A stretch of 64,000 bases of DNA from positions 224,001-288,000 of IMG/VR virus record IMGVR_UViG_3300045988_179268. One strand, written 5' to 3'. The DNA is from a virus. Of this stretch, positions 2,859 through 22,147 are shown piece after piece. The position numbers were made by a program, and so were the translations under genes. The first letter of the stretch is position 1. Each line of letters begins with the position of its first letter. A model generated the notes under the pieces. The model saw nothing but the letters and a program-made list of their open reading frames with translations, had not been told where the DNA came from and did no database searches.

Positions 2859-4061
2859 ATGAACCTACTAGAGCATTACCGCGACAACTACAGCCATGTT
2901 GTTCGCCTCAATAAGCATGAGGCAACCGGGCTAACCTGCGTCAAGTACAAGCCTGACGTTTATGACTTTACTGACCCTTACGTCCGAATGGCGCGAGGTC
3001 TAGTCCTCAACGACCAGGGCGACATTATCCTGCGAGGATTCAATAAGTTCTTCAACTGGAAGCAGTACGACCTCAAGACCACGGTAGACCGTAAGTTCAA
3101 GGAAGAGTTTACCCACATGGGGTCATTTGCGCCTGACGAGAAGGTCACCTTCTATGAGAAGCTAGACGGAACCTGCATCATTGTTGGACTCTACGAAGGC
3201 GAATACCTGTTTGCTACTCCCGGCGCTGTTGAAACCCCTAAGTATCAGGAGCCGGTACATCGACTACTAAACGAAGCTCCGCAAGTTAAGGCATGGCTGG
3301 AAGAAAACCCGGACATGTGCCTCATCTTCGAGTACACTTCCCCCTACAACATCATTAACGTGCTGTACGAGGAGGAGAACCTTACTCTCATTGGTCTGGC
3401 AAGTAAGACTTACGGCGACCGTAGCCCCCTGGAAATGCTCGAAGTAGCCGAGAAGCTAAACCTCCCCGCACCGAAGGTCTACCACATGACCATTCCCGAA
3501 GTGTCACAGGTTCAGGAAGAAACCAAGGGCATTGAAGGATTCATTGCTGTAAACCAGTATGGGCACCTCTTGAAGTTCAAGACCGAGGACTGGTTCATGC
3601 ACAGCAACGACTTCCTCCACCCCTATGTGAACAAGTCGTCACGTCCCGCCGTCCGCCGAATCATCCAGGCAGTCGCAAACGGAACGATTGACGACATGCT
3701 GGCACGCCAGGCAACCCTATCCGAGAAGGATATTGAGGATAAGATTTCCGTTGTTGTTGAATGTGTTGAAGAGCTTCTAGCTGAGGGGCAGGAGAAGTAC
3801 CTCCAGCTCAAGCAGGCGCTTGACTCTGCGCCGACCGAGGAAGCTAAGTATGAGGCTCGTGTAAAGTTCTTCGACCCGAAGAGCAAGAGTGCAACGAACC
3901 CTCAGATGGCACTAGTGACCACTCACCTGCGAGGCAAGACGTTCTCCCAGCTTATCGAAGAACACCCGGCACGCCTCAAGTCCTTCACCCAGGACATCAT
4001 GGAGCGACTTATCGCCCGAGGGGTCAGCGTGACCATCGAAAAGCCGCGCCCCAAGCAGTAA
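2859..4061 (+). CDS. ATP-dependent RNA ligase, T4 Rnl1-like
   Basis: Has motif I KLDG (YEKLDGTCII), ARGLVL and FNKFFNW like T4 Rnl1 CRGIMF/MEKFFNL, motif IV EGFIAV and motif V LLKFKTEDW. RBS is AAAGGAAG and a promoter motif sits at 2773-2786. Confidence 0.8.
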   Translation: MNLLEHYRDNYSHVVRLNKHEATGLTCVKYKPDVYDFTDPYVRMARGLVLNDQGDIILRGFNKFFNWKQYDLKTTVDRKFKEEFTHMGSFAPDEKVTFYEKLDGTCIIVGLYEGEYLFATPGAVETPKYQEPVHRLLNEAPQVKAWLEENPDMCLIFEYTSPYNIINVLYEEENLTLIGLASKTYGDRSPLEMLEVAEKLNLPAPKVYHMTIPEVSQVQEETKGIEGFIAVNQYGHLLKFKTEDWFMHSNDFLHPYVNKSSRPAVRRIIQAVANGTIDDMLARQATLSEKDIEDKISVVVECVEELLAEGQEKYLQLKQALDSAPTEEAKYEARVKFFDPKSKSATNPQMALVTTHLRGKTFSQLIEEHPARLKSFTQDIMERLIARGVSVTIEKPRPKQ

Positions 4062-4241: not shown

Positions 4242-5444
4242 ATGCCCACTGAAATTTCTGATTCCTACTTGGAGGGAATAATGGCTCTAGCTGACAGCAT
4301 TGGCATGGTTAAAGGAAGCAGGCGTAATGTGAGGGCTTCCTTACCTAAGCGCGTCTCTGACGCTGTGATTGCTAATACTTACGGTATTGACTCCCAGATT
4401 GCGATGTGTGCGGTTGCTACCCGTAAGGCGGAGACTCACATCATGGAGTTGGGCGGACGTTACGCCACGGTAGAAGAATACAACGAATGGCTTGAAACCT
4501 ACCTTAAGCTGGGTGGGACAATTGATGTCTACCATGATTACCCGATGCCACTGAACGCCTTTTTCTTCTTCGCTAACCCATCATGGCTAGACCTTCATAC
4601 AGCATTTGAGTATTCGTTACCTATTAATGTGCTTGCAAGCCCTAACTACAACCTTAAAAGCCACCCCTTCAAAGGCTCCAATAATATTGATTGCATGGTC
4701 AGCTTCTTCGGGTGGGCTCCCACTAGTGAAGGTGACCTCTCCCCGGCGATTAGCGGCAACAACACAGTGCATGTTTGGAGTGACACGGTGGATAGGGTTC
4801 TCATGCGTGAGGATGCCGAAGATGCCGCTCTGTCTGCCCGGCTGAGGACTATGTATGATGAGTGGCATGACGACTCTACCCTTGGGAATATTGATGGGCA
4901 GATGCGTGCCCATCACATGTCAGGGGCAGGCTCGCCGCTTGTGCAGGCGTTGCGTGAATCTGTTGGTACGGTATTTAGTGAACCTGCAACGAGTAGCGAT
5001 TATGCTGAGTGGTTGCAGGAGTATGTGAACTATCTGGACAGCACGGGTGGCAAGCCAAGTGACTCACAGTATGGGAATCTGGTACATTCTGAACCTTACG
5101 CCACCTTAGCGTATATGAACGGTTTCAATCTTGATGCGAGGGCTTTTGTTCGTGTTTACAAGTTTGCTTTGCCGTTCTCTGTGCTACCGTGGGCATACGA
5201 TACTGAATGCTTCCTCTTATTGGATAAGGGCATTGATGCTGTTGAGTATGCAGACAATATTGCCCGGATGCAGGCAAGGTATGGTTTTGACAACCCTCAC
5301 ATCGTTGTTTTTGGATGGAATGCCGAAGGTGTCCCTGTTGTAATTAACGGTATAGCCCCTATTTATCGTGAGTGTCTTGACGCCCCCTCTAGGGCTATTA
5401 TCATGACTGCTTTCGATAAGGATGTTTGGGCATCCTATAGCTAG
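4242..5444 (+). CDS. hypothetical protein with internal duplication
   Basis: Long ORF with RBS GAGG. Two related halves are visible (EEYNEWLETYLKLGGT vs SDYAEWLQEYVNYLDSTGG; EYSLPINVL vs KFALPFSVL). Confidence 0.75.
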   Translation: MPTEISDSYLEGIMALADSIGMVKGSRRNVRASLPKRVSDAVIANTYGIDSQIAMCAVATRKAETHIMELGGRYATVEEYNEWLETYLKLGGTIDVYHDYPMPLNAFFFFANPSWLDLHTAFEYSLPINVLASPNYNLKSHPFKGSNNIDCMVSFFGWAPTSEGDLSPAISGNNTVHVWSDTVDRVLMREDAEDAALSARLRTMYDEWHDDSTLGNIDGQMRAHHMSGAGSPLVQALRESVGTVFSEPATSSDYAEWLQEYVNYLDSTGGKPSDSQYGNLVHSEPYATLAYMNGFNLDARAFVRVYKFALPFSVLPWAYDTECFLLLDKGIDAVEYADNIARMQARYGFDNPHIVVFGWNAEGVPVVINGIAPIYRECLDAPSRAIIMTAFDKDVWASYS

Positions 5445-6229: not shown

Positions 6230-7384
6230 ATGCCGTCCAAGGAACTTCCTGTAAAGGTAGGCAAGCTTAAAGTCTACGTTCATCTCAAAGTAAATGACCG
6301 CAAGGTGCAAGACTCCATGCTGGAGTACTACAACGCATACATTAAAGTATGCAACCTAGCCAGCAAAGTCGCATACACCCTCAACACGGTAAGCGTGAAC
6401 CGAATCCACGCCCGCGTAAAGAGCGACGCGCGATTCTACGAAGAACAGCACCCTGGAGTACTAGACCGCGCCATTGACGCAGTAACCAAAGACTACGCAA
6501 ATCACGTGGCAGGCGTGAATAAATTCCCCGAAGCACGCACATACAGCGTCCACGACATCCCTGTATGTCAGGACACTGATTACGACTTCATTCCGCTGGG
6601 CAATAATCGACATGGCGTGGAACTCTACCTTGCTAACCGTAGTAGCGGATTCCCTATCACCGTACAGTTCTTGGCGGAATGGCTAAACCTACCCAATGGT
6701 CACGCATACTCCACAACCGCCTCTACCGCCGAACTGTCGTTCGACCACAAGCTAGGTTGGCTCCTTAAGTACGACATGTACACTGTACAGAATACCGTAG
6801 TGGGCATTGACCTGGGCACACGTTTCCTTGCCGTCACCTACGACGGTAAGGAAACTAAGTTCTATCGTGGCGGTGACACCCCCCTCCGGCATGAGATGGC
6901 GACGTATAGCCGCCGCCGCCTAAGTCTCAAGGAGAAGGGTACTCGTAGCGCCCGTAAGCGACTCAAAGCCCTCTCAGACGACTGGCATAAGCATCTGGAA
7001 GCAAATATTAAGAAGACTGTCAAGGAAATTCTTAAGGGTGCTGAGCCTCATACTGTGTTCGCTCTAGAAGATATTGCCGCATCTCCAGAATTGCGAGAGC
7101 GATTCGCCAAAGAAGACGTGGGTAAGCTACCGACCGTCATCTTTGACATGTTCATCCGAACCCTCCGAGATGAGGCGCAGAAACGTGGACATATTTTTAT
7201 TACCGTTTCTAAGGCAAAAACTAGCACAAGGTGCCCCGCATGTGGTATGATTATTAAAAGCAACAGGAAGCAGGGCAAACACATCTACGGATGCTCCTGT
7301 GGTTTCAGGTCTAACGACGACCGTGTAGCCGCAATTAATATCCGTGAACGTGGCATTGTTCGGCTAACTGAACGCCTAGCATAA
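6230..7384 (+). CDS. tnpB: TnpB-like RNA-guided RuvC nuclease (IS200/IS605 OrfB family)
   Basis: RuvC-I VVGIDLG, RuvC-II VFALEDI, zinc finger CPACG..GCSCG, RuvC-III NDDRVAAINI. Size (~384 aa) is typical of TnpB. No adjacent tnpA. Confidence 0.85.
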   Translation: MPSKELPVKVGKLKVYVHLKVNDRKVQDSMLEYYNAYIKVCNLASKVAYTLNTVSVNRIHARVKSDARFYEEQHPGVLDRAIDAVTKDYANHVAGVNKFPEARTYSVHDIPVCQDTDYDFIPLGNNRHGVELYLANRSSGFPITVQFLAEWLNLPNGHAYSTTASTAELSFDHKLGWLLKYDMYTVQNTVVGIDLGTRFLAVTYDGKETKFYRGGDTPLRHEMATYSRRRLSLKEKGTRSARKRLKALSDDWHKHLEANIKKTVKEILKGAEPHTVFALEDIAASPELRERFAKEDVGKLPTVIFDMFIRTLRDEAQKRGHIFITVSKAKTSTRCPACGMIIKSNRKQGKHIYGCSCGFRSNDDRVAAINIRERGIVRLTERLA

Positions 7385-7480
7385 GCGCCAGGGAACATGT
7401 TTCCTGACGTGGGGTGAGATGCTACCACCCCACCAGGCTTAGGGTAGTAGGTTAAGCGGTAAAACGCTTAACCTCAGCAA
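6230..7480 (+). mobile_element. possible TnpB-only IS200/IS605-like remnant
   Basis: The tnpB-like gene is followed immediately by three strong hairpins (7389-7406, 7408-7432, 7449-7474), as expected for a right-end/omega-RNA region. I did not identify the element ends. Confidence 0.3.
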
Positions 7481-8410
7481 ACACCCTTTAGGGCACATAA
7501 AACATAAGTGCATGATGATAGGTGACGGTAGTCAAGGGTCGAACCGCTTTTATCTGGTAGAGAGGCAAAACTCTCCAGAGCCACTTCTCGGAAGGGGGAT
7601 GCGGCGCGGGAGTCTTGAACGCTTAACTCTATCGGATTGTGTTTATGTTTTCGCCAGCCTGACGAAGTTCCACTCACGCGGGAACCTGATGACTCATGCT
7701 TGCTAGTATGACGAGGGTACCTGCGGCGCGTGTTTGTACACATAAGCGTATAGTAGAAGGGACAAGCTGACCCGCAACTAGCGCCACCGTTAGCTTCATT
7801 GATAGTGCAATAGGCTAATAGCGGCAAAAGGACGCAGGTCAATACAGCAGAATAGCGACATTCGCACAATGCATGTGCAGGGAACACACTTTATAACTTC
7901 CACATGTTCACAACCTGCCCTGTATTTAACGGATGTTAGAGACACCCCAACGGACGTTTGGGTAAGTGGACGGTAAAGCTGAATCAAAGCCCCAATAAGG
8001 CATGACGAAGCATTATCACACCAGAAGCGTGTCACTGTGCAACTATGTTGCCCGCCAGTAAATGAGCAAAGCTGGCATTATCGGGCACCGCCAATAGTTG
8101 CCGGCTGTTTGCCCAGCCACACAGTATTTCATGGGCACACTGGATGTGACAAAAATACCAGCCACTTACAAATGCTCAAACCAACGTCACCACCAGAAGG
8201 TTCAATATAACGAGCCTCACAGTGGTTTGAGGAACGACGACCTACCCCTCTTGCAGGAGGGTGAAGTCGGGCCAACAGTTGAACGCAACACAACGCAGGA
8301 AACTGATTCGTTACTTATCGTTGCGGGTGTCTCTCTTTTTATGTGCAAAAATAGCCTCTCACCTATGGGGGAAACCTCAAACAATTACATCGCAAAGACT
8401 CGCACGAATT
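7385..8410. ncRNA. candidate large non-coding region (omega-RNA plus unknown structured RNA?)
   Basis: About 1.1 kb with TAA/TAG in all plus-strand frames. Track ORFs here lack an RBS and look non-protein-like. It begins with three consecutive perfect hairpins. Confidence 0.3.
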
Positions 8411-8506
8411 AAAATTTGTGGTACAATTAAATTGAAATAAGATTCATGGAATATAGTTACGGTTCCATGCACAACTAACGCACCTACACGGAAAGGCAAA
8501 AACGCA

Positions 8507-9460
8507 ATGACCTGCAACTACTTCATCGAAGCCGGAGAACTACTAGTACTCCCTGCCGACCCCAATGAAAACCCCGGACGACTATACGACACCTACCTTT
8601 GCATCCGAGGTGAAGACGGAATGCCGGGACGTGTCGCATCCCTCAACCCAGAAGACATGGGGAAAGAATGGGACGTCACGAAAGACAAATTCAAGCTGGA
8701 GGAAAGCACGAAGCTCACGCTCTGGTGTACCAAACCTGGTCACGGCTTGTACGCTAACACGCTACACCCGCACAAGAAGGTCTACCCCTGCCGCCCCATG
8801 AGGTTCGATTACTACAAAGCATATGAATGGGTGGAAGCGGGCAATAAAGTTTATGACATGCTAACTAATAAGGATACCCAGCCTTACAATGCTGACCCCG
8901 AAATTAGCTTCTACTTCGACGCGCTTCGTAAACTCATCCTCCAGAACCATAAATATCGAGAGTTCGTTGGGTCTGTAGGCATGGAAAACGGGGCGGTTGA
9001 AACCCTCACCAGTTTCATTACCACTAGCATGAATAATGTGAAATCATTACTACGCGCAGATGCAGGTGCTCTGGAACGTGCCGCTATGAAAACCCAACAC
9101 GCCCTCACCTACGCCCATGATGAGGAAAAGAGTGAACGGGTCACAGATGCACTCAACACCCTCAAGTCAATCCGTAACAAGGGGGCGCTAAACACTTCCA
9201 TTAGCGCCGCCGCTATCGAGAAGGCTTTGGCTTGGGTGGAAGAAGCGGCAGAAATCCACAAGAACACCGACGCACTGTTCCCCAACGATTATATGCCTCT
9301 CACCCTTGCCACCAAGGAACTGCGAAAAGTAGGCACTTCACTTCTTGCACCTGTAGAAGAATGGCATAACACCATTAGCAAGCTCATCACCATTCAGAGC
9401 CCAGAGTACGACGAAGCACGCAAGAAGTACCTCAACAAGCCTTCCAATAGCATCTGGTAG
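8507..9460 (+). CDS. hypothetical protein
   Basis: Long ORF with a promoter motif at 8414-8427 and RBS GGAAAGG. Confidence 0.75.
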   Translation: MTCNYFIEAGELLVLPADPNENPGRLYDTYLCIRGEDGMPGRVASLNPEDMGKEWDVTKDKFKLEESTKLTLWCTKPGHGLYANTLHPHKKVYPCRPMRFDYYKAYEWVEAGNKVYDMLTNKDTQPYNADPEISFYFDALRKLILQNHKYREFVGSVGMENGAVETLTSFITTSMNNVKSLLRADAGALERAAMKTQHALTYAHDEEKSERVTDALNTLKSIRNKGALNTSISAAAIEKALAWVEEAAEIHKNTDALFPNDYMPLTLATKELRKVGTSLLAPVEEWHNTISKLITIQSPEYDEARKKYLNKPSNSIW

Positions 9461-10112
9461 CTAAACCTTGTAGTTTCGTTACACTGGGTGTCGCCAACCA
9501 AAAAAGAATAATCAACGCAAGTAACCCAAAGTCAGCTTCACTGCCAGGTAGCCACAATCATAACCAGCAGTGAACAAAGAAGAGGTGTAGTTGTAGCACA
9601 CTCGCTGTTAAAAACCAGTTGAAGTGTCGCAACTACACCTCAAACTATTTATCAACAAAACCGTTAAAGATAAAAGCCGACTATTGTCCACATCTGGGCG
9701 ATGAACATTCAACCAGAACATGAGTAAGCACTCAATGTGAGCAGTCTCTCACCATGAAAACCAATAAATGCATCCAATGCACTAACACAGCTGGGAAGCA
9801 CCTGTGATATACTTTTTGCAAGCGGGATGAACACGCCGCCTGCACCACGGCACCCAAACTATAGGGTGACTATGATATAGTGCGCAAACCTAACCTTAAC
9901 GGGTAGAAGTGTACCCAGAGAATGCCTACAAGCACCTCCGGTACATGGTGGCAGGCGACAAAACCGCATAATAGGCACACTAATGAGGCACCATTCCCCG
10001 GCAGACAACCCGCCAAACGCCAAACCCAGGCAACACGCCTAAAAAGGTGTGGGGAAGCCTCAATGAAAAGCCTGACAACAAACCATAACTAACATGGACA
10101 TAGGAGAGACAC

Positions 10113-16718: not shown

Positions 16719-16802
16719 GCCGCAGTGCCTGAGTTTGGAAAAAGGGGCTGACTGTAAATTAGCTGTCGTTCGACTACGGGGGTTCAAATCCCTCCTGCGG
16801 CA
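16719..16802 (+). tRNA. tRNA-Tyr (GTA)
   Basis: Acceptor GCCGCAG/CTGCGGC, anticodon arm GCTGA-CTGTAAA-TTAGC, long variable arm, T arm GGGGG-TTCAAAT-CCCTC. No encoded CCA. Confidence 0.85.
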
Positions 16803-16833
16803 CGCAACACATCATTAAGATGTGTTCTATATA

Positions 16834-16970
16834 CCTCGCCTGTTGGTGAGATGGGAGAGGTAGTAAAAATAAACGGGTAGGCAACAGTGTTTGTCACGCC
16901 AAAACCTGAAAAGCAGGTTATAGCCACAGGGCAATCTGGGCGCTCCTTGACCGTGCAACAAGGGGTCACC
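16834..16970 (+). ncRNA. divergent scaffold-like module S3
   Basis: Keeps hairpin 1 (CCTCGCCTG..GGGAGAGG), AAATAAACGGG and GGGGTCACC, but the middle differs and no repeat follows. Confidence 0.45.
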
Positions 16971-17030
16971 AAAAATCAAAGCACGGGTATGTTCAACACG
17001 TCAGCATAATTGAGTGCTGTGACCTCGACC

Positions 17031-17174
17031 TGCGAGGGGCGGGGAGGTCGAAAAAATAAATGGGCAGGCGGCTACCAGCTATCCTGTCAAGACCAGGAAG
17101 GCTGACGACAGTCAGCTGGAGGGTTACCGTCTAGTGAAACGCTAGACCCAACTCATATAGAGGAAATCCGGCTC
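17031..17174 (+). ncRNA. scaffold RNA module S4
   Basis: Hairpin 1 GACCTC..GAGGTC, AAATAAATGGG, GTCAAGACCAGGA, GGCTGAC/GTCAGCT, GGAGGGTTACCGT, CTAGTG/CGCTAG. Ends ..CCGGCTC. Confidence 0.7.
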
Positions 17175-17190
17175 AGTATATATCAGGGGT

Positions 17191-17260
17191 CACTTTCCCA
17201 TACACGCGAGGATGGCTCCATAGCGGGATGGTTGAAACCTCCCTACATGCGGGATGGCTC
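17191..17260 (+). CRISPR. two degenerate repeats after S4
   Basis: CACTTTCCCATACACGCGAGGATGGCTC (17191-17218) and CCTCCCTACATGCGGGATGGCTC (17238-17260). Intervening segments are short (16 and 19 nt). Confidence 0.5.
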
Positions 17261-17287
17261 CCGCAACAAAATAATACGAAACCAGGC

Positions 17288-17316
17288 TTGCAAACCACAA
17301 AAACATGTGGTACACT
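17288..17316 (+). promoter_or_regulatory. promoter (TTGCAA-17 nt-TACACT with TGG extension)
   Basis: CTTGCAAACCACAAAAACATGTGGTACACT. The -10 hexamer ends 11 nt before the first base of tRNA(UCA). Confidence 0.7.
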
Positions 17317-17327
17317 GGTTTACATAG

Positions 17328-17398
17328 GCCCATCTAGCTTAATGTAAAGCAACAGTCTTCAAAACTGTGAGATGTCGGTTCAAGTCCGGCGGTGGGTG
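17328..17398 (+). tRNA. tRNA with anticodon TCA (UGA-decoding; suppressor or reassignment tRNA)
   Basis: Acceptor GCCCATC/GGTGGGT (two G-U pairs), D arm GCTT-AATGTA-AAGC (short loop with no GG), anticodon arm ACAGT-CTTCAAA-ACTGT, variable GAGAT, T arm GTCGG-TTCAAGT-CCGGC. 71 nt. Confidence 0.7.
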
Positions 17399-17447
17399 CT
17401 TGCAAGTAACAAAACCGGAGTTCTAGCCGAAAGTGGCGTAACTTGCG

Positions 17448-17529
17448 GCGTGTAATGACCACGAAGGCAAGTGGCGAGCCCAGTTAGAATGGGCACGTAA
17501 TAGTAGGGGTCGGTTCCCTTCTACACGCT
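17448..17529 (+). tRNA. non-canonical tRNA-like element (anticodon-like loop GTTAGAA)
   Basis: Perfect 7-bp acceptor GCGTGTA/TACACGC, hairpin GCCCA-GTTAGAA-TGGGC, T-like arm AGGG-GTCGGTT-CCCT. The D region and junctions do not fit a standard cloverleaf. Confidence 0.3.
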
Positions 17530-17534
17530 CTACA

Positions 17535-17674
17535 CTCCTCGTCTGCGAGAGATTGGGAGAGGAGGATAATAAAAACGGGCGCTAACCGCGTCAAGACCAG
17601 GAAAGCCAACGATAGTCAGCTTGAGGGTCACCGTCTAGTGAAACACTAGACCCAGCCCACGTAAGGGGCGGCTC
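17535..17674 (+). ncRNA. scaffold RNA module S5
   Basis: Full copy ending ACGTAAGGGGCGGCTC. It is fused directly to a 5'-truncated tRNA-like sequence. Confidence 0.7.
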
Positions 17675-17728
17675 AAGAGCAGTGCTTTTACACAGCAAAG
17701 GTCGTGGGTTCAAATCCCTCACGAACCA
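17671..17728 (+). pseudogene. 5'-truncated tRNA-like fragment (Val TAC-like)
   Basis: GCTC-AA-GAGC, then TGCT-TTTACAC-AGCA, then GGTCGTGGGTTCAAATCCCTCACGA. No 5' acceptor strand is present. Its D-stem GCTC is the last 4 nt of S5. Confidence 0.35.
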
Positions 17729-17756
17729 CACTTGGTACCCTTTTATAGGGCATCAA

Positions 17757-17829
17757 GTCTCTTTAGCTCAGATAGTAGAGCGCCCGCCTGAAGAGCGGGA
17801 GGTCGCCAGTGCAAGCCTGGCAGGAGACA
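17757..17829 (+). tRNA. tRNA-Phe (GAA)
   Basis: Acceptor GTCTCTT/AGGAGAC, D arm GCTC-AGATAGTA-GAGC, anticodon arm CCCGC-CTGAAGA-GCGGG, T arm GCCAG-TGCAAGC-CTGGC. Confidence 0.85.
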
Positions 17830-17862
17830 CGTAAGCCCACCTATTTTTTCGGTGGTGCATTA

Positions 17863-18004
17863 CCTCTCGCCTGTGAGAGACGGGAGAGAGTGAAAACGGA
17901 CGGGCGGCTTCGGTTGCCTGTCAAGACCAGGAGAATTAACTTCGGTTAATTTGAGGGTTACCGTCTAGTAAAATACTTAGACCCACCCATGTATGGGAAG
18001 GCTC
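17863..18004 (+). ncRNA. scaffold RNA module S6
   Basis: Full copy with hairpins ATTAAC/GTTAAT and CTAGTA/TACTTAG. Ends ATGTATGGGAAGGCTC. Confidence 0.7.
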
Positions 18005-18037
18005 ATCCAGTCTACAGCTAAGAAAGCGCGCGGTGCA

Positions 18038-18064
18038 GTATTTCTTATATACACGGGATGGCTC
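18038..18064 (+). CRISPR. single degenerate repeat, 33 nt after S6
   Basis: GTATTTCTTATATACACGGGATGGCTC. The spacer 18005-18037 is exactly 33 nt. Confidence 0.55.
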
Positions 18065-18202
18065 TCTTACAGTCTGGTTCCTTTTTTGCGCCCATGTGGG
18101 CTGACTGGGAATTACTTATATGAAGAAAGAAGAGATGTGGCATCACTAACATGCACTGCTTTATCTCTGTTTTTTCAGTGACACAGATAACACAAAATCG
18201 AG

Positions 18203-18232
18203 TTGCAAACCACGAAAAACATGTGGTACACT
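18203..18232 (+). promoter_or_regulatory. promoter (TTGCAA -35, TGGTACACT)
   Basis: GTTGCAAACCACGAAAAACATGTGGTACACT, a paralog of 17288-17316. Confidence 0.7.
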
Positions 18233-18314
18233 TTATATATGAGACGTGAGGGCTTGAAAGAGTCCCCGACGCAAAAGCTCATTGAAAACCTTATAGAGTA
18301 AACTATTTAATCAA
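18233..18314 (+). ncRNA. conserved leader L2 upstream of tRNA-Tyr
   Basis: Homologous to L1 (16635-16718). Confidence 0.3.
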
Positions 18315-18398
18315 GCCGTTGTATCCAAGTGGTCAAAGGAAACTGTCTGTAAAACAGTCGCTATCGAAGCTTCGTGGGTTCGACTCCCTCCGGCGGCA
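18315..18398 (+). tRNA. tRNA-Tyr (GTA)
   Basis: Acceptor GCCGTTG/CGGCGGC (G-U pairs), anticodon arm ACTGT-CTGTAAA-ACAGT, long variable arm, T-loop TTCGACT. Confidence 0.8.
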
Positions 18399-18469
18399 CG
18401 AGACACATTACTAGAATGTGTTTAGCTACATCATCTATACGTGCTATAGTTGTTGCAGTAAATATTTTT

Positions 18470-18540
18470 GGCGTACTAGTTTAGTGGTAAAACCTCAGTC
18501 TTCCAAACTGATGATACGGGTTCGATTCCCGTGTACGCCT
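18470..18540 (+). tRNA. tRNA-Trp (CCA)
   Basis: Acceptor GGCGTAC/GTACGCC, D arm GTTT-AGTGGTA-AAAC, anticodon arm TCAGT-CTTCCAA-ACTGA, T arm ACGGG-TTCGATT-CCCGT. Confidence 0.85.
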
Positions 18541-18544
18541 CTAT

Positions 18545-18683
18545 GCTCCTCGCCTGTGAGAGACGGGAGAGGAGCTAAATCTAAACGGACACTCACGTGT
18601 CAAGACCAGGAGAGTTGGGCAACCTACTCAAGGGTTACCGTCAAAGTAAAGCTTTGGCACGCTCCGCATAAGGTCGATGACTT
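18545..18683 (+). ncRNA. scaffold RNA module S7
   Basis: Begins 5 nt after tRNA-Trp. Short hairpin 2 ACAC/GTGT and hairpin CAAAGT/GCTTTG. Ends GCATAAGGTCGATGACTT. Confidence 0.7.
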
Positions 18684-18751
18684 AGAGTAAGTATCTACAT
18701 GTTCTAAGTCATCGTGCGGGATTCGCGTCTCACTAAATCCTGCGTGTCTAA

Positions 18752-18777
18752 GGATTCTCCTTCTCATTAGAGAGACT
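18752..18777 (+). CRISPR. single highly degenerate repeat
   Basis: GGATTCTCCTTCTCATTAGAGAGACT keeps ATTCTCC and a TCTC/GAGA stem. Confidence 0.35.
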
Positions 18778-18818
18778 ATAGATGCGTTTTACATAATCTG
18801 AAATAACTAACACTTTAA

Positions 18819-18900
18819 GCGCTTGTGGCGGAATTGGCAGACGCGGCAGACTTAGAATCTGTTGTCAGCAGACGTGTGGGTTCGAGTCCCACCAGGCGCA
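18819..18900 (+). tRNA. tRNA-Leu (TAG)
   Basis: Acceptor GCGCTTG/CAGGCGC, anticodon arm GCAGA-CTTAGAA-TCTGT, long variable arm, T arm GTGGG-TTCGAGT-CCCAC. Confidence 0.85.
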
Positions 18901-18930
18901 CTTGGTGTCCACAAGTGCATGTGGGTGCCC

Positions 18931-19052
18931 GCTTCCGTATCCAAGCTAGGTTAAGGGGAGCGTCTTTCATGAGCCTTCTGCACATAACGGCTATGGGAGC
19001 GCTTGCGGTGCATGAGAGTGCCCGCGCGCCGGTTCAAATCCGGTCGGAAGCA
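18931..19052 (+). tRNA. atypical 122-nt tRNA-like RNA
   Basis: Perfect acceptor GCTTCCG/CGGAAGC, T arm GCCGG-TTCAAAT-CCGGT, D-like TCCAAGCTAGGTTAAGGGGA. The interior has two long hairpins and I found no standard 7-nt anticodon loop. Confidence 0.35.
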
Positions 19053-19083
19053 CGTAACGCCACCTACTATGGTGGCTTGTTAC

Positions 19084-19227
19084 TCACCTCGCCTATGAGA
19101 GATGGGAGAGGTGAATAATCTAAACGGACACTAACCATGTCAAGACCAGGAGAACTAGCTTACGCTGGTTAGAGGGTCACCGTCTAACAAAATGTTTAGA
19201 CCCGCCTCGTATTTATGGGGTAGGCTT
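19084..19227 (+). ncRNA. scaffold RNA module S8
   Basis: Full copy with hairpins AACTAGC/GCTGGTT and CTAACA/TGTTTAG. Ends TATGGGGTAGGCTT. No repeat follows. Confidence 0.7.
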
Positions 19228-19327
19228 TCAGCCTCATTAGGTAACCTATTGAGGCACCCTTATTGCAATAGGGGAGCCTTCGGGCTTCTGGCTTTTATCA
19301 CTCATTCTTTTGCGAGATTGAGTGTTG

Positions 19328-19339
19328 GTGTGGTATACT
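19328..19339 (+). promoter_or_regulatory. promoter-like extended -10 (GTGTGGTATACT)
   Basis: Variant of the motif, about 20 nt upstream of tRNA-Leu(TAA). Confidence 0.45.
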
Positions 19340-19358
19340 TATCATGCTTACTCTTTAG

Positions 19359-19438
19359 GCGCTTGTGGCGGAACTGGCAGACGCGGCGGACTTAAAATCC
19401 GCTTCTTCGGAGTGTGGGTTCGAGTCCCACCTGGCGCA
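19359..19438 (+). tRNA. tRNA-Leu (TAA)
   Basis: Acceptor GCGCTTG/CTGGCGC (one T-T mismatch), anticodon arm GCGGA-CTTAAAA-TCCGC, variable arm, T arm GTGGG-TTCGAGT-CCCAC. Confidence 0.8.
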
Positions 19439-19468
19439 CGCAACCACCCTTAACTGGGAGGTTTATAT

Positions 19469-19542
19469 TCCCTTGTAGCTCAATTGGCAGATGCGCCCGA
19501 CTGTTAATCGGGAGGTTACTGGTTCGAGTCCAGTCTGGGGAG
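19469..19542 (+). tRNA. tRNA-Asn (GTT)
   Basis: Acceptor TCCCTTG/CTGGGGA (one mismatch), anticodon arm CCCGA-CTGTTAA-TCGGG, T arm ACTGG-TTCGAGT-CCAGT. Confidence 0.8.
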
Positions 19543-19594
19543 CTTACGTCACTTATGCGTGGCGTTGATACCTTAGCTTTTTTGTTAAGGTTCT

Positions 19595-19670
19595 GGTCTG
19601 TTAGCTCAGTGTTGGTTAGAGCACCGCCCTGTCACGGCGGAGGCCGCGGGTTCGAGCCCCGTACAGACCG
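19595..19670 (+). tRNA. tRNA-Asp (GTC)
   Basis: Acceptor GGTCTGT/ACAGACC, anticodon arm CCGCC-CTGTCAC-GGCGG, T arm GCGGG-TTCGAGC-CCCGT. Confidence 0.9.
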
Positions 19671-19691
19671 CGTATAGTTTTTTTGGCTATG

Positions 19692-19831
19692 CCTCTCGCC
19701 TGTGAGAGACGGGAGAGAGTAAAAACGGACAGGTAGCTTCGGTTACCTGTCAAGACCAGGATAGCGGGGTAACCTGCTTGAGGGTCACCGTCTGACAAAA
19801 TGTTAGACCCAGCCCACGTAGGGGATGGCTC
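19692..19831 (+). ncRNA. scaffold RNA module S9
   Basis: Full copy with hairpins AGCGGG/CCTGCT and CTGACA/TGTTAG. Ends CCCACGTAGGGGATGGCTC. Confidence 0.75.
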
Positions 19832-19864
19832 CTTGGACTCGAAGTTTTGACGAATAGGGAGTCC

Positions 19865-19892
19865 GTTTTCCCAGCACACGCGGGAGTGGCTC
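19865..19892 (+). CRISPR. single repeat, 33 nt after S9
   Basis: GTTTTCCCAGCACACGCGGGAGTGGCTC (28 nt). The spacer 19832-19864 is exactly 33 nt. Confidence 0.65.
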
Positions 19893-19932
19893 ACCGTGAC
19901 CTCCTGTGTGATACAGGTAACATAAAAACGGC

Positions 19933-19962
19933 TTGCATACCATAGAAACTATATGGTACACT
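19933..19962 (+). promoter_or_regulatory. promoter (TTGCAT -35, TGGTACACT)
   Basis: GCTTGCATACCATAGAAACTATATGGTACACT upstream of the Thr-Ala-Lys tRNA block. Confidence 0.65.
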
Positions 19963-20029
19963 TGCTATATATGGTTCGGGGAAACCTGAAAGACCGATAC
20001 GCTATTTCTTAATTGAATGAATTTTTTTT

Positions 20030-20103
20030 GCCTCCTTAGCTCAGTTGGTTAGAGCATCTGTCTTGTAAACAGAGGGTCGCCGGTTCGACTCCGGCAGGAG
20101 GCT
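20030..20103 (+). tRNA. tRNA-Thr (TGT)
   Basis: Acceptor GCCTCCT/AGGAGGC, anticodon arm TCTGT-CTTGTAA-ACAGA, T arm GCCGG-TTCGACT-CCGGC. Confidence 0.9.
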
Positions 20104-20139
20104 CGCTAAAGTAGATAGTTTTACTGTTTGCTTTTATGA

Positions 20140-20212
<73 letters not shown>

Positions 20213-20242
20213 CTCACACGCCTGTTGCAGGTTGTGTGTTAA

Positions 20243-20315
20243 GCGCCTTTAGCTCAGTCGGTAGAGCAGTGGACTTTTAATCCTCGGGTCGCGGGTTCGA
20301 GCCCCGCAGGGCGCA
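20243..20315 (+). tRNA. tRNA-Lys (TTT)
   Basis: Acceptor GCGCCTT/AGGGCGC, anticodon arm GTGGA-CTTTTAA-TCCTC (one mismatch), T arm GCGGG-TTCGAGC-CCCGC. Confidence 0.8.
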
Positions 20316-20552
20316 CGTAGCATGAAGGGATGTAGCTAATCCTTTCGTAATACACCGGATAAACACTATTCAGAAGGTCGTAGGTTAAAATCCTGCCACG
20401 TGCCACATTGCACGTGTAGCTCGGTGTTATAAGAGCGTCTGGACGGTGCCGGTTTAAGCCATACACAGGGGAAGTGACCTACACACTTCCATAGGGGTAG
20501 CGCCCCGGCTGTCTTGTAGGATAAGGGTACCTCTTAGCGGGGGTGCTCTCAT

Positions 20553-20628
20553 GGTCTGTTAGCTCAGTGTTGGTTAGAGCACCGCCCTGTCACGGCGGAG
20601 GTCGCGGGTTCAAGTCCCGTACAGACCG
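20553..20628 (+). tRNA. tRNA-Asp (GTC), second copy
   Basis: Near-identical to 19595-19670. T-loop is TTCAAGT. Confidence 0.9.
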
Positions 20629-20666
20629 CTTATATGGCGCACTGACCGCCTAAATAGTCAGTCTAA

Positions 20667-20740
20667 GCCCTTGTAACTCAGCTGGTTAGAGTGCCGCTCT
20701 GATAAGGCGGATGCCGGTGGTTCAAGTCCACCCAAGGGCA
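20667..20740 (+). tRNA. tRNA-Ile (GAT)
   Basis: Acceptor GCCCTTG/CAAGGGC, anticodon arm CCGCT-CTGATAA-GGCGG, T arm GGTGG-TTCAAGT-CCACC. Confidence 0.9.
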
Positions 20741-20742
20741 CT

Positions 20743-20814
20743 GTGTGTGAAGCCGGATAGCGAGGCGCTTGCTTGTGGCGCAAGTAGTAGCGGGTGCGAT
20801 TCCCGTCACACACC
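20743..20814 (+). tRNA. tRNA-His (GTG)
   Basis: Acceptor GTGTGTG/CACACAC with discriminator C, anticodon arm CTTGC-TTGTGGC-GCAAG, T arm GCGGG-TGCGATT-CCCGT. Confidence 0.8.
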
Positions 20815-20816
20815 CC

Positions 20817-20891
20817 GCTCCCCTAGTTCAGTCTGGATAGAACGCCGTGCTACGAACGCGGAGGTGGCAGGTTCAAATCCTGCGGGGAGCA
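20817..20891 (+). tRNA. tRNA-Arg (ACG)
   Basis: Acceptor GCTCCCC/GGGGAGC, anticodon arm CCGTG-CTACGAA-CGCGG, T arm GCAGG-TTCAAAT-CCTGC. Lies 2 nt after tRNA-His. Confidence 0.9.
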
Positions 20892-20924
20892 CGTAACAGC
20901 ACCTATTATGGTAGTGTGTTATAT

Positions 20925-21080
20925 ACCTCGCCTGTGAGAGACGGGAGAGGTGGTAAATCTAAACGGATAGGTGGCATCGGCTACCTGTCAAGACCAGGAT
21001 GGCGGGGCAACCTGCTTGAGGGTCACCGTCTAGTGAAACACTCAGACCCAACCCACATAAGGGAAAACGTAAGGTGAATC
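20925..21080 (+). ncRNA. scaffold RNA module S10
   Basis: Full copy nearly identical to S1 in its 5' half. The terminal part is extended (..CACATAAGGGAAAACGTAAGGTGAATC). Confidence 0.7.
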
Positions 21081-21121
21081 TATTTTGCGGCTTGACCCGG
21101 TATTAAGCCTAGTCAGGAAGA

Positions 21122-21205
21122 TTTTTCCCTACGCATGTGAGGCTGGCTCTACTCAGCCTAACATGCGTAGGCGACGTTTTCTCCGTACACGCGAGGGGAT
21201 GGCTC
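21122..21205 (+). CRISPR. two repeats after S10
   Basis: TTTTTCCCTACGCATGTGAGGCTGGCTC (21122-21149) and GTTTTCTCCGTACACGCGAGGGGATGGCTC (21176-21205). The 26-nt spacer is largely the reverse complement of the first repeat. Confidence 0.55.
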
Positions 21206-21288
21206 CGGCTAGGATACGCCCTTCAAGGCGGCGCTACTTTCTTTACATACATAGAAAGTCAGCTTTTATCAATATGCTCACAACATAT

Positions 21289-21361
21289 GCCCCCATCGTC
21301 TAGATGGTTAGGATACTACCCTTTCAAGGTAGAGATGCGGGTTCGAGTCCCGTTGGGGGTA
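21289..21361 (+). tRNA. tRNA-Glu (TTC)
   Basis: Acceptor GCCCCCA/TGGGGGT, anticodon arm CTACC-CTTTCAA-GGTAG, T arm GCGGG-TTCGAGT-CCCGT. Confidence 0.85.
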
Positions 21362-21496
21362 CGCAAGCTTCAAGAGTTATATTTGTAGCTTTTGGAAGCT
21401 GGCATGGGGTCATGCTGTTTTTATAGTTATGGTCACAATTTAACCTTTCGTTACATCGAGTAGCGGCTCGCCGTCTTGTTGGTTGCCGCTATTCTT

Positions 21497-21570
21497 ATCC
21501 CAGTAGCTCAGTGGATAGAGCGCCCGCCTCCTAAGCGGGGTCGTCACAGGTTCGACTCCTGTCTGGGATA
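21497..21570 (+). tRNA. tRNA-Arg (CCT)
   Basis: Acceptor ATCCCAG/CTGGGAT, anticodon arm CCCGC-CTCCTAA-GCGGG, T arm ACAGG-TTCGACT-CCTGT. Confidence 0.8.
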
Positions 21571-21604
21571 CTTTTAGGTAAACCTGTTTTTTAGGTTTAC
21601 CGTT

Positions 21605-21677: not shown

Positions 21678-21678
21678 C

Positions 21679-21947: not shown

Positions 21948-21976
21948 CGTAGCACATTCCTTTTGGGTGTGTTTAC

Positions 21977-22128: not shown

Positions 22129-22147
22129 GACAAAAAAGTCAGGCGGT

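What the first reader, a model, noticed from the sequence alone, without database searches (positions are those of the whole stretch)
7385..8506. A 1.1 kb ORF-free, hairpin-rich region immediately downstream of TnpB-like gene 1
The gene density of this window is otherwise very high. Yet 7385-8506 has stops in all plus-strand frames, and its only ORFs lack an RBS and are compositionally implausible. It opens with three back-to-back perfect hairpins: CAGGGAACATGTTTCCTG, GTGGGGTG..CACCCCAC and AGGTTAAGCG..CGCTTAACCT. These could be the omega-RNA/right-end of the TnpB element. About 900 nt remains unexplained before the next promoter at 8414. Large ornate phage RNAs (GOLLD- or ROOL-type) are known to sit near tRNAs in phage genomes, but I cannot recognise one from memory.
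Basis: partly seen in the sequence, partly recalled or inferred. Interest (0 to 1): 0.65.

Follow-up and report, generated by a model that had tools for sequence, protein, structure and literature searches.

The report
Giant TnpB-linked structured phage RNA
The "empty" kilobase after this jumbo phage's TnpB nuclease gene encodes a conserved, tightly folded RNA of about 1 kb that looks like a greatly expanded version of the guide RNA such nucleases use, and no RNA catalogue lists it.

Summary
Window 7385-8506 has no credible gene and starts with the hairpins described. The real unit is 7385-8342. The stretch 8343-8506 is the promoter and leader of the next gene.

This unit is a + strand structured RNA. 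Its MFE z-score is -8.4, against -0.5 to -3.4 for 12 coding controls. It carries significant covariation and is as conserved as, or better conserved than, the neighbouring genes.

Homologous RNAs of 425-960 nt directly follow every TnpB of this clade in five lineages (49-96% protein identity) on phage contigs of up to about 367 kb, with one exception. I found no copy without a TnpB.

All versions share the same core:
- two hairpins
- a long-range helix enclosing a variable domain
- the motifs GUUCCAC, GGGACAAGCU and GCAGAAUAGCG
- a terminal hairpin plus U run

In the window's lineage a 366-nt domain sits inside that terminal hairpin. The core motifs resemble the omegaRNAs of distant TnpB relatives, and the canonical scaffold end falls at 7803. 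Unlike omegaRNAs, the RNA then continues as conserved structure rather than ending in a flank-derived guide. Rfam 15 has no match (not GOLLD, ROOL, HEARO or an intron).

Best reading: an expanded omegaRNA-derived partner of TnpB. Where its guide lies, and what it targets, is unresolved.

The parts
6230..7384 (+). tnpB gene (384 aa). RuvC D194/E280/D364 and the CxxC...CxC zinc finger are intact.
   Evidence: Pfam and PHROGs. Catalytic residues and Cys are invariant in 8 clade members. PDB sequence match 8iaz_A, ISFba1 TnpB. AF2 plus Foldseek match Cas12f/TnpB/Fanzor2 over the full length.
7241..7251 (+). Promoter-like extended -10 motif TGTGGTATGAT inside the tnpB ORF. It is the candidate start signal for the RNA (inferred TSS about 7258, roughly 125 nt before the stop codon).
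   Evidence: It matches the phage promoter consensus TGTGGTAYAMT. TGTGGTAT and the final T of the -10 are invariant in all lineages. In residues 321-345, 5 of 7 invariant degenerate amino acids use one codon in every lineage, against 7 of 81 in residues 1-320. No such motif lies upstream of tnpB in any lineage.
7385..8342 (+). The structured RNA element as a whole: the part downstream of the tnpB stop codon, 958 nt.
   Evidence: z = -8.4 against coding controls. 274 consensus pairs, of which 18 have compensatory changes, against 9.3 +/- 2.0 in shuffles and 0-2 in slid controls. 96-98% identical to L001, where the tnpB 5' part is 89.7% and the upstream spacer 88.7%. The 3' boundary is set by the indel in L006.
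7387..7408 (+). Hairpin H1.
   Evidence: 5 of 10 pairs show compensatory changes across lineages.
7409..7433 (+). Hairpin H2 with the conserved loop GAGAYGCUACC. A similar hairpin follows the stop codon in the omegaRNA regions of P. macerans and phage iLp1308.
7434..7661 (+).
   Evidence: P3 is CAGGCU/AGCCUG here, GUGAAC/GUUCAC in lineage B and CAGGU/ACCUG in lineage C. The enclosed domain is about 95 nt in C/F and 215-290 nt in A/B/D. In P. macerans the GUUCCA motif follows H2 directly.
7661..7673 (+). Conserved motif a1 (GAYGAMGUUCCWC).
   Evidence: Present in all lineages. It pairs with a2 (GUUCC.CYC with GRG..GGGAC): 95.5% of cells paired, with one compensatory pair.
7756..7803 (+). Motif a2 (GAAGGGACAAGCUGAC, 7756-7771), then a subterminal hairpin (7764-7771 with 7789-7796) and the tail CAUUGAU (7797-7803). 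This is the canonical omegaRNA scaffold 3' module.
   Evidence: Same layout as P. macerans ACAAGCUCGUGAC..GUCAUGAGUUGUUGAC, iLp1308 and RM378. The descriptor ACAAGC + stem >= 6 bp + TTGAY occurs once in the whole window on both strands, here. A subterminal hairpin within 10 nt of the scaffold end is the one consistently conserved omegaRNA feature (PMC10278001).
7804..7841 (+). Segment at the position where canonical omegaRNAs carry the guide (AGUGCAAUAGGCUAAUAGCGG...).
   Evidence: Mostly unpaired in the consensus fold and moderately variable among close relatives. No target found: no >= 13-nt match for this segment elsewhere in the window and no hit for its first 18 nt in IMG/VR. That it serves as a guide is inference only.
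7842..7937 (+). Conserved, predicted-unpaired motif a3 (AUACAGCAGAAUAGCG, 7842-7857), followed by a hairpin domain closed by 7857-7864 with 7930-7937.
   Evidence: The motif is identical in lineages A, B and D, and is GCAGAAUAGCG or GGAAUAGCG in F and C. The closing helix covaries: ACAUUCG/CGGAUGU here, ACAUUCAUC/GAUGAAUGU in B, GCAUUUGCAY/RUGYRAAUGU in D.
7938..8342 (+). Terminal hairpin (7938-7952 with 8319-8334) followed by a U run (8335-8342). A 366-nt multi-branched domain (7953-8318) sits in its loop.
   Evidence: The closing helix covaries with lineage B (AGGGAACACCUUC / GAAGGUGUCCCU). In lineage D the same hairpin has about a 10-nt loop and is followed by UUUUGU. Lineage F ends in a strong hairpin plus U run, and lineage C in a strong hairpin with a weaker U-rich tail (UUGUU). 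The internal helices have compensatory changes.
8343..8506 (+). NOT part of the element. This is the start of a separate cassette: promoter TGTGGTACAAT at 8417-8427 and the leader of the 317-aa gene at 8507-9460.
   Evidence: Window 8343-9641 is absent in L006. The promoter motif recurs across the window.

Best explanation
The region encodes an RNA descended from a TnpB omegaRNA (right-end RNA) that has been greatly enlarged and fixed in place.

It is made from the + strand, either as the 3' part of the tnpB transcript or from a promoter-like site inside tnpB (7241-7251). It ends at a hairpin plus U run at 8342.

The segment from inside the ORF to 7803 keeps the omegaRNA scaffold: the H2 hairpin, the GUUCCAC:GGGAC closing helix, and a subterminal hairpin followed by UUGAU. 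I infer that this scaffold binds the catalytically intact TnpB. A 215-nt structured domain has been inserted into it.

A canonical omegaRNA would end here in a 16-20-nt guide copied from the DNA flanking the transposon. This RNA instead continues as fixed, conserved sequence and structure: 7804-7841, the invariant motif ACAGCAGAAUAGCG, a hairpin domain, and a terminator hairpin that carries a 366-nt domain in this lineage.

The most likely working model is a non-transposing TnpB ribonucleoprotein. Its targeting segment would be hard-wired and internal, starting at 7804. The 3' appendage would define and protect the RNA's 3' end, and may add another function.

Shown: conservation, structure, strand, strict linkage to tnpB, boundaries, and an intact nuclease.
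Inferred: binding to TnpB, the promoter, termination, the position of the guide, and the target.
For: 1. Real structured RNA on the + strand. z = -8.4, against -0.5 to -3.4 for 12 coding controls and -4.9 for the - strand. 274 consensus pairs, 98% paired, with 18 compensatory pairs against 9.3 +/- 2.0 in shuffles (0/500) and 0-2 in slid controls. The independent consensus fold of lineage B gives the same architecture. An anchored A+B alignment gives 44 compensatory pairs against 4-9 when slid.

2. Purifying selection. The RNA is 96-98% identical to L001, where the tnpB 5' part is 89.7% and the upstream spacer 88.7%.

3. Strict linkage. In the lineages that have the RNA (A, B, C, D, F), each TnpB is followed by exactly one copy, starting at the stop codon. 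No copy of the core or of the 3' half occurs anywhere else in the window or in about 100 fetched loci. The motif pair is absent from 185,579 species genomes apart from chance hits.

4. omegaRNA ancestry. The H2-like hairpin, GUUCCA, and ACAAGC + subterminal hairpin + UUGAY appear in the same order after the stop codon in P. macerans, phage iLp1308 and RM378 TnpB loci. The composite descriptor occurs once in 128 kb of window sequence, at 7762. A subterminal hairpin within 10 nt of the scaffold end is the hallmark of omegaRNAs (PMC10278001).

5. Overlap with the ORF. Synonymous variation is suppressed in codons 321-345, around an invariant TGTGGTAT that matches the phage promoter motif.

6. The nuclease is intact. 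D/E/D and the zinc finger are invariant, and the fold is full-length TnpB/Cas12f.

7. The end is defined. A terminal hairpin closes every lineage's RNA, followed by a clear U run in A, B, D and F and a weaker U-rich tail in C, and an indel boundary falls exactly at 8342/8343.
Against: - No guide or target was identified. The segment at the guide position has no match elsewhere in the window or in IMG/VR. It is partly conserved between lineages that sit at different genomic loci, which is unlike a flank-derived guide.
- The homology to canonical omegaRNAs is at motif level only. nhmmer profiles do not detect it. The ACAAGC-hairpin-UUGAY descriptor fits lineage A but not B, C, D or F.
- Lineage F keeps an intact RNA although its tnpB is split by a frameshift in at least 24 contigs. 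That could mean the RNA has a function independent of TnpB.
- Lineage E keeps a full-length tnpB with no such RNA.
- In A and B the 'terminator' stem encloses 366 nt. That is atypical, and the simple terminator scan did not flag it.
- There are no expression data.
Confidence: 0.6

Rival explanations
1. An independent large 'ornate' non-coding RNA of the phage, in the spirit of GOLLD or ROOL. Its function would have nothing to do with RNA guidance. It would sit next to tnpB because the TnpB element once inserted beside or into it, or because both hitch-hike as one cassette.
For: Size, ornate multi-branch structure and phage origin fit. Lineage F retains the RNA with a frameshifted tnpB in at least 24 contigs. 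Lineage E retains tnpB without the RNA. The 366-nt 3' domain is lineage-specific and sits beyond the canonical scaffold end.
Against: No stand-alone copy of the core or of the 3' half was found in any fetched sequence, in IMG/VR pattern scans or in 185,579 species genomes. The RNA always begins at the tnpB stop codon. Its 5' two-fifths carries omegaRNA-type motifs. There is no Rfam match.
Confidence: 0.15
2. A purely cis-acting 3' UTR of the tnpB mRNA. The structure would stabilise the message, terminate transcription and perhaps throttle TnpB activity or translation, with no role as a separate RNA.
For: It is contiguous with the ORF and ends in a terminator-like hairpin. tnpB has no phage-type promoter of its own and follows the upstream gene's terminator. 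[quoted passage not shown]
Against: A stabiliser or terminator does not need 425-960 nt with invariant, predicted single-stranded motifs kept across lineages whose proteins are only about 50% identical. The conserved promoter-like motif inside the ORF suggests a separate transcript. The RNA is kept where tnpB is frameshifted.
Confidence: 0.12
3. A self-splicing intron or other ribozyme associated with TnpB (IStron-like), or a self-cleaving element that matures the guide RNA.
For: IStrons combine TnpB with a group I intron (10.1101/2023.11.20.567912 and PMC13521648; listed). The RNA is large and highly structured. CUGAUGA-like strings occur near motif a1.
Against: No group I/II intron or small-ribozyme family matches at Rfam gathering thresholds, or at E <= 10 on any of three diverged versions. 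In IStrons the intron core lies upstream of tnpB. Here the upstream spacer is about 140 nt and is not conserved. No host gene is interrupted.
Confidence: 0.03
4. Decayed or unrecognised protein-coding sequence, for example the 137-aa - strand ORF or a TnpB remnant.
For: A 119-149-codon open frame on the - strand is present in all close relatives. There is a weak tblastn match of TnpB residues 223-287 to 7743-7552 on the - strand (31% identity, E = 0.001 in a 64-kb database).
Against: Substitutions are even across codon positions. Frame-shifting indels occur between relatives. The frame is absent in lineage B. There are no Pfam or PHROG hits. The translations are Cys- and Arg-rich. Compensatory base-pair changes and G.U pairs support an RNA on the + strand.
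Confidence: 0.02

Closest known systems
TnpB omegaRNA / reRNA of IS200/IS605-family elements (for example ISDra2, ISFba1; survey in PMC10278001)
   Same: It is encoded on the tnpB strand and appears to overlap the 3' end of the ORF. It has a hairpin-rich scaffold. A subterminal hairpin lies 7 nt before the inferred scaffold end (7803). It shares the H2, GUUCCA and ACAAGC...UUGAY motifs with the nearest TnpB relatives that have recognisable right ends. The partner protein is a full-length, catalytically intact TnpB.
   Different: The RNA does not end in a flank-derived guide. It continues for 120-540 nt of conserved structure and ends in a terminal hairpin, usually followed by a U run. Total length is about 0.55-1.1 kb, against 79-466 nt for processed omegaRNAs. 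A structured domain of 95-290 nt is inserted in the scaffold. There is no TnpA and no conserved left end. Sequence profiles do not detect the homology.
TldR guide RNAs (TnpB-derived RNA-guided transcription factors with fixed guides; PMC10705468, listed)
   Same: Both are domesticated, non-transposing TnpB relatives, often phage-borne, whose RNA carries a fixed targeting sequence rather than one derived from a flank.
   Different: By the published description (paper not read here) TldR proteins are repurposed as transcription factors rather than nucleases. Here D/E/D is invariant. By my recollection, TldR gRNAs are small (about 100 nt of scaffold plus a short 3' guide). Nothing comparable to the 3' appendage is known to me.
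IStrons (IS605/IS607 elements carrying a group I intron together with TnpB and its omegaRNA)
   Same: A large catalytic-size structured RNA is physically fused to a tnpB unit, and the RNA functions overlap at the right end.
   Different: No group I intron signature was found (Rfam negative). The extra RNA lies downstream of tnpB, not upstream. No interrupted host gene is present.
GOLLD, ROOL and OLE large ornate RNAs (PMC12286853, listed)
   Same: Size of 0.5-1 kb, a many-branched conserved structure, occurrence in phage genomes that carry tRNA arrays, and unknown biochemical role.
   Different: There is no covariance-model match to any of them. This RNA is strictly tied to a TnpB gene, and its 5' part is omegaRNA-like.
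IscB/IsrB omegaRNAs (HEARO RNA): RNA-heavy OMEGA ribonucleoproteins
   Same: Both pair a compact nuclease with an unusually large structured RNA that may take over roles played by protein domains elsewhere. This is my inference from established knowledge of IsrB and IscB structures.
   Different: The protein family is different (TnpB, not IscB). The guide is at the 5' end in IscB. The HEARO model (which I recall as Rfam RF02033) does not match.

Membership tests
TnpB omegaRNA (reRNA) | Encoded on the same strand as tnpB, at or overlapping the 3' end of the ORF | tested here: met
   The RNA starts at the stop codon in all five lineages. There is nucleotide-level constraint and a promoter-like motif in codons 321-345.
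TnpB omegaRNA (reRNA) | Subterminal hairpin within about 10 nt of the scaffold's 3' end (PMC10278001) | tested here: inconclusive
   Lineage A has ACAAGC + an 8-bp hairpin + CAUUGAU, like P. macerans, iLp1308 and RM378. The same descriptor fails in lineages B, C, D and F. The hairpin competes with another predicted helix.
TnpB omegaRNA (reRNA) | Detectable homology to the omegaRNAs of related TnpBs | tested here: inconclusive
   There is motif-level resemblance in order and position. nhmmer finds nothing, with or without the inserted domain.
TnpB omegaRNA (reRNA) | 3'-terminal guide of about 16-20 nt copied from the DNA flanking the transposon end, differing between insertion sites | tested here: not met
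   The sequence after the scaffold end is conserved structure shared between lineages at different loci, and it ends in a terminal hairpin, usually followed by a U run.
TnpB omegaRNA (reRNA) | Length in the known range (processed species 79-466 nt) | tested here: not met
   The RNA is 958 nt after the stop codon here and 425-530 nt in the smallest lineages, plus about 125 nt if it starts inside the ORF.
TnpB omegaRNA (reRNA) | Binds TnpB and directs DNA cleavage next to a TAM | not testable with these tools
   This needs RIP-seq and cleavage assays.
IS200/IS605 transposon | TnpA (Y1 or serine) transposase, and conserved left and right ends with subterminal hairpins | tested here: not met
   No transposase domain is found in the neighbouring ORFs. 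The sequences upstream of tnpB are not conserved between lineages.
TnpB protein | RuvC D-E-D triad, zinc-finger TNB domain, and WED/REC/RuvC fold | tested here: met
TldR (nuclease-dead TnpB transcription factor) | Loss of the RuvC catalytic residues | tested here: not met
   D194, E280 and D364 are invariant in 8 clade members.
GOLLD / ROOL / OLE / HEARO / raiA and other Rfam large RNAs | Match to the family covariance model | tested here: not met
   There are no hits at gathering thresholds, and none at E <= 10 on the window's version. Lineages B and C gave only three sub-threshold chance matches (E 1.5-7.4; ST7-OT3_4, mir-252, Spot_42).
Group I / group II introns and small self-cleaving ribozymes | Match to the Rfam intron or ribozyme models; interruption of a host gene | tested here: not met
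   The flanking genes are intact and each has its own terminator or promoter.

The most novel reading that the evidence does not exclude
This would be a previously unrecognised class of TnpB ribonucleoprotein in jumbo phages. The omegaRNA would have become a 0.5-1.1-kb RNA with an internal, hard-wired targeting segment and a large, lineage-specific 3' domain. That domain would do something no known guide RNA does, for example gate R-loop formation, recruit another factor, or oligomerise. The system would serve the phage in phage-phage or phage-host conflict, or in homing, rather than a transposon.
Probability: 0.3. Interest if true: 0.8.

Novelty: new variant of a known kind. Interest (0 to 1): 0.68.

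Why it matters
TnpB-omegaRNA systems are the ancestors of Cas12 and serve as compact genome editors. So far their RNAs are described as short scaffolds, 79-466 nt once processed, that end in a flank-derived guide.

This RNA keeps omegaRNA hallmarks but is two to ten times larger. It carries inserted and appended structured domains and ends in its own terminator. It is conserved with an intact nuclease across phage lineages whose TnpB proteins are only about 50% identical. That combination would show that the RNA half of these systems can expand and become fixed.

It gives a concrete candidate for testing several questions:
- how guide position and 3' extensions are tolerated
- whether phages use nuclease-active TnpB with hard-wired guides
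- what a 366-nt appendage on a guide RNA does

It also adds a well-supported family to the small set of bacterial and phage RNAs larger than 500 nt with unknown function. About 20 distinct sequences in five lineages are in hand.

Tried and rejected
1. Reference phages (INPHARED). DNA and protein searches with the region and its neighbours found no match, apart from distant TnpBs.

2. IMG/VR. Protein-seeded locus searches with TnpB and the neighbouring proteins gave nothing, or only a contig I already held. Exact-protein look-ups of the window's own proteins were not on record.

3. Motif-pair scans. The metagenome scan gave 51 loci, of which about 20 were real. The rest had no TnpB and no profile match, so they are chance hits. 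All 18 genome-contig hits were chance, including three orthologous coding genes in Ruminiclostridium MAGs.

4. Search for an 'empty' allele using the a3 motif. This returned only the two known contigs and one chance hit in a GC-rich coding region.

5. Search for a target of the guide-position segment. There is no >= 13-nt match for it elsewhere in the window (the whole RNA gives one 13-mer chance match), and no IMG/VR hit for its first 18 nt.

6. nhmmer profiles of the core, with or without the inserted domain, against canonical omegaRNA loci found no hits. I did not build a covariance model from only three canonical examples, because it would have been too weak.

7. The weak tblastn similarity of TnpB to the - strand ORF was rejected as compositional.

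8. The cross-lineage consensus fold suggested that a2 pairs with the 3' strand of the terminal hairpin. I rejected this because it is not possible in lineages C and F.

9. The 100-nt block shared after the RNAs of lineages C and D is the next gene's promoter and leader, not part of the RNA.

10. The P. macerans relative occurs at one orthologous locus only, so its right-end boundary could not be mapped from multiple copies.
Full report
**1. The observation**

The window is part of a large phage-type genome. It holds 27 tRNA genes, a T4 Rnl1-like RNA ligase and a recurrent extended -10 promoter motif, TGTGGTAYAMT. Relatives sit on contigs of 300-367 kb, two of which are catalogued as viral genomes in IMG/VR.

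The ORF at 6230-7384 is a TnpB.
- Pfam gives the TNB domain at 6e-14 and PHROGs gives a transposase family at 1.5e-24.
- The RuvC D/E/D residues and four zinc-finger cysteines are invariant in eight clade members.
- An AlphaFold2 model (pLDDT 86, pTM 0.80) matches Cas12f, TnpB and Fanzor2 structures over its full length, at E 1e-15 to 1e-10.

Downstream, 7385-8506 contains only mechanical ORFs, and none hits Pfam or PHROGs. The longest is 137 aa on the - strand. It stays open in close relatives, but substitutions fall evenly over codon positions, indels shift the frame between relatives, and the frame is missing in the next lineage.

The three hairpins are present. The first has a G.T wobble. 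The third lies 14 nt beyond the second.

**2. Boundaries**

Relative L006 is collinear with the window up to 8342 and then resumes at 9642. So 8343-9641 is a separate cassette, made of the promoter at 8417-8427 and the 317-aa gene. The element ends at the U run 8335-8342.

**3. Is it more than chance?**

- The 958-nt + strand folds at -345 kcal/mol, against -288 +/- 6.7 for dinucleotide shuffles (z = -8.4).
- Twelve coding segments of the same length from the window give z from -0.5 to -3.4. The - strand gives -4.9 (searches agree).
- Against L001 the RNA is 96-98% identical, while the 5' two-thirds of tnpB is 89.7% and the spacer upstream of tnpB is 88.7%.

**4. Relatives**

A protein search with TnpB found a clade of about 22 proteins at 48-96% identity. 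I fetched their contigs. A motif-pair scan of IMG/VR and of metagenome contigs added more. This gave five lineages with a long ORF-free stretch directly after tnpB:

| Lineage | Note | RNA length after the stop codon |
|---|---|---|
| A | the window's; nine distinct sequences | about 958 nt |
| B | TnpB 60% identical | about 950 nt |
| C | TnpB 51% identical | about 430 nt |
| D | TnpB 53% identical | about 530 nt |
| F | tnpB split by a frameshift | about 425 nt |

A profile of the core finds exactly one copy after each of these TnpBs and none anywhere else, in the window or in about 100 fetched loci. The same holds for a profile of the 3' half. The roughly 40 other motif-scan loci are chance hits. 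All 18 hits in 185,579 species genomes are also chance.

One lineage, E, has a C-like TnpB whose last 12 codons differ. It is followed by only about 200 nt of unrelated sequence before a 23-tRNA array. It appears to have lost the RNA.

**5. Architecture**

Consensus folding of lineage A and of lineage B, run independently, gives the same layout. The anchored comparison of all lineages and local folds extend it. In window coordinates:

1. H1, 7387-7408.
2. H2, 7409-7433, with the loop GAGAYGCUACC.
3. Long-range helix P3, 7434-7439 with 7656-7661, closing a variable domain of 95-290 nt.
4. Motif a1, GAYGAMGUUCCWC, 7661-7673.
5. One or two hairpins.
6. UAGAAG followed by motif a2, GGGACAAGCYRAC, 7756-7771.
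7. A variable stretch.
8. Motif a3, (ACA)GCAGAAUAGCG, 7842-7857.
9. A hairpin domain closed by 7857-7864 with 7930-7937.
10. A terminal hairpin, followed by a U run (weak, UUGUU, in lineage C).

In lineage D the terminal hairpin has a loop of about 10 nt. Lineage F also ends in a simple strong hairpin plus U run, and lineage C in a strong hairpin with the weaker tail. In A and B the homologous stem (7938-7952 with 8319-8334) encloses a 366-nt multi-branched domain.

**6. Covariation**

- On the lineage-A alignment, 274 pairs are 98.1% paired. Eighteen pairs have changes on both sides, against 9.3 +/- 2.0 in column shuffles (0/500) and 0-2 when the partners are slid.
- H1 has five compensatory pairs out of ten across lineages.
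- P3, the a3 helix and the terminal helix each change sequence between lineages while keeping their pairing.
- An anchored A+B alignment gives 44 compensatory pairs out of 120, against 4-9 when slid.
- a1 and a2 can form an 8-bp closing helix. It is 95.5% paired, with one U-A to C-G swap in lineage D, but it is otherwise invariant and so only weakly tested.
- Many G.U pairs and the U run point to the + strand.

**7. Relation to omegaRNAs**

Rfam 15 gives nothing at gathering thresholds, and nothing at E <= 10 on the window's version. The lineage B and C versions gave only three sub-threshold chance matches (E 1.5-7.4; ST7-OT3_4, mir-252, Spot_42).

The right ends of the nearest TnpB relatives that have recognisable omegaRNA regions show the same motifs in the same order after the stop codon. 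Those relatives are P. macerans, Lactobacillus phage iLp1308 and Rhodothermus phage RM378, and they show:
- an H2-like hairpin (GGGGCG-AGGUCAAC-CGUCC);
- GUUCCA (P. macerans);
- near the end, ACAAGC running into a hairpin, followed by (G/A)UUGAY.

The window has ACAAGCUGAC...GUUAGCUU-CAUUGAU at 7762-7803. A descriptor for this composite occurs once in both strands of the 64-kb window, and it occurs here.

Nety et al. report that a subterminal hairpin within 10 nt of the scaffold's 3' end is the only consistently conserved omegaRNA feature. [quoted passage not shown]

So the canonical scaffold end maps to 7803, and the guide position begins at 7804. Two caveats apply. nhmmer does not detect the homology. 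The descriptor also fails in lineages B, C, D and F.

**8. The 5' end**

The last 190 nt of tnpB are 81% identical across lineages. In codons 321-345, five of seven invariant degenerate amino acids use a single codon in all lineages, against 7 of 81 in codons 1-320. The constrained bases spell TGTGGTAT...T, which matches the phage's own promoter motif. No such motif precedes tnpB, which instead follows the upstream gene's terminator.

I infer that the RNA has its own start about 125 nt before the stop codon. That is the usual place for an omegaRNA to begin.

**9. What it most likely is**

It is an omegaRNA-derived RNA that has gained three things: an inserted domain in the scaffold, a fixed and conserved 3' extension in place of a terminal flank-derived guide, and a built-in terminator. 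It is co-inherited with a nuclease-competent TnpB that shows no sign of transposing, with no TnpA and no conserved left end.

The segment 7804-7841 is mostly unpaired and moderately variable among close relatives. It is my candidate for a hard-wired internal guide, but I found no target for it.

**10. Observations that cut the other way**

- The RNA is retained with a frameshifted tnpB in at least 24 contigs (lineage F).
- One lineage keeps tnpB without the RNA (lineage E).
- The terminal stem in A and B encloses a very long loop, and the simple terminator scan did not flag it.

These keep a TnpB-independent ornate RNA and a cis-acting 3' UTR alive as rivals.

**11. Literature**

Full-text searches found no description of such an RNA. 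The terms covered TnpB with jumbo, huge or gut phages, omegaRNA with large structured RNA, and ROOL/GOLLD-type phage RNAs.

**12. Verdict**

This is a real, conserved, TnpB-linked structured RNA family. It is a new variant of the omegaRNA kind rather than a member of any catalogued family. The mechanism is inferred and the guide is unresolved.

Noticed in passing
window 5568, 8417, 15510, 16624, 18222, 19329, 27078, 29049, 45612, 51483, 53241 (+ strand): A recurrent promoter-like motif, (TTGCNN)-N18-TGTGGTAYAMT, precedes genes and tRNA clusters. It is probably the phage's main promoter class. The same motif precedes genes in related contigs (L004 7697, L007 8113, L076).
   Followed up: partly
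window 8343-9641: A cassette made of a promoter and a 317-aa gene is present here but absent in relative L006, which is otherwise about 90% identical. The 317-aa protein is 32% identical to a 306-aa protein encoded two genes upstream of tnpB in lineage-C phages.
   Followed up: partly
window 40110-41711: A second, longer TnpB-like gene (533 aa) is 70% identical to a TNB-domain protein in related contig L010. It has no copy of the large RNA downstream.
   Followed up: partly
L072-L075, 4535-5687: In lineage F the tnpB is split into overlapping ORFs of 170 and 228 aa (+1 shift). The identical 228-aa product is on record in at least 24 contigs, and the downstream RNA is intact. This is either a programmed frameshift or a widespread pseudogene.
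   Followed up: no
L076 5001-11149: Lineage E has a C-like tnpB whose last 12 codons differ. It lacks the large RNA and is followed after about 200 nt by a promoter and an array of 23 tRNA genes.
   Followed up: partly
L024 1274-5306 (- strand): Two tnpB-RNA units of different lineages (F/C-like and D) lie close together in the same orientation in one phage, separated only by a 114-aa gene. These phages also carry other TNB-domain genes nearby (L007, L010).
   Followed up: partly
alignment A3 columns ~195-325 (L003/L014/L025/L030 versus L018/L035/L039/L044/L064): Within lineage B, a sub-domain of about 130 nt inside the P3-enclosed region exists in two unrelated sequence versions, each able to form its own helices. 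This looks like a swapped module in an otherwise 88-96% identical RNA.
   Followed up: no
L053 versus window 6230-8342: Mosaicism inside the unit. L053's TnpB is 99.7% identical to the window's, but its RNA is only 88-91% identical and its upstream spacer 68%. This implies recombination breakpoints near the tnpB/RNA junction.
   Followed up: no
window 16719-23172, 26814, 37289: There are 27 tRNA genes, most in one array at about 16.7-23.2 kb, 8 kb downstream of the element.
   Followed up: no
window 2859-4061 and 4242-5444: A T4 Rnl1-type RNA ligase (Pfam 4e-13) is followed by a second ORF of exactly the same length (400 aa) with no family match. Both are conserved upstream of tnpB in lineage A.
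   Followed up: no
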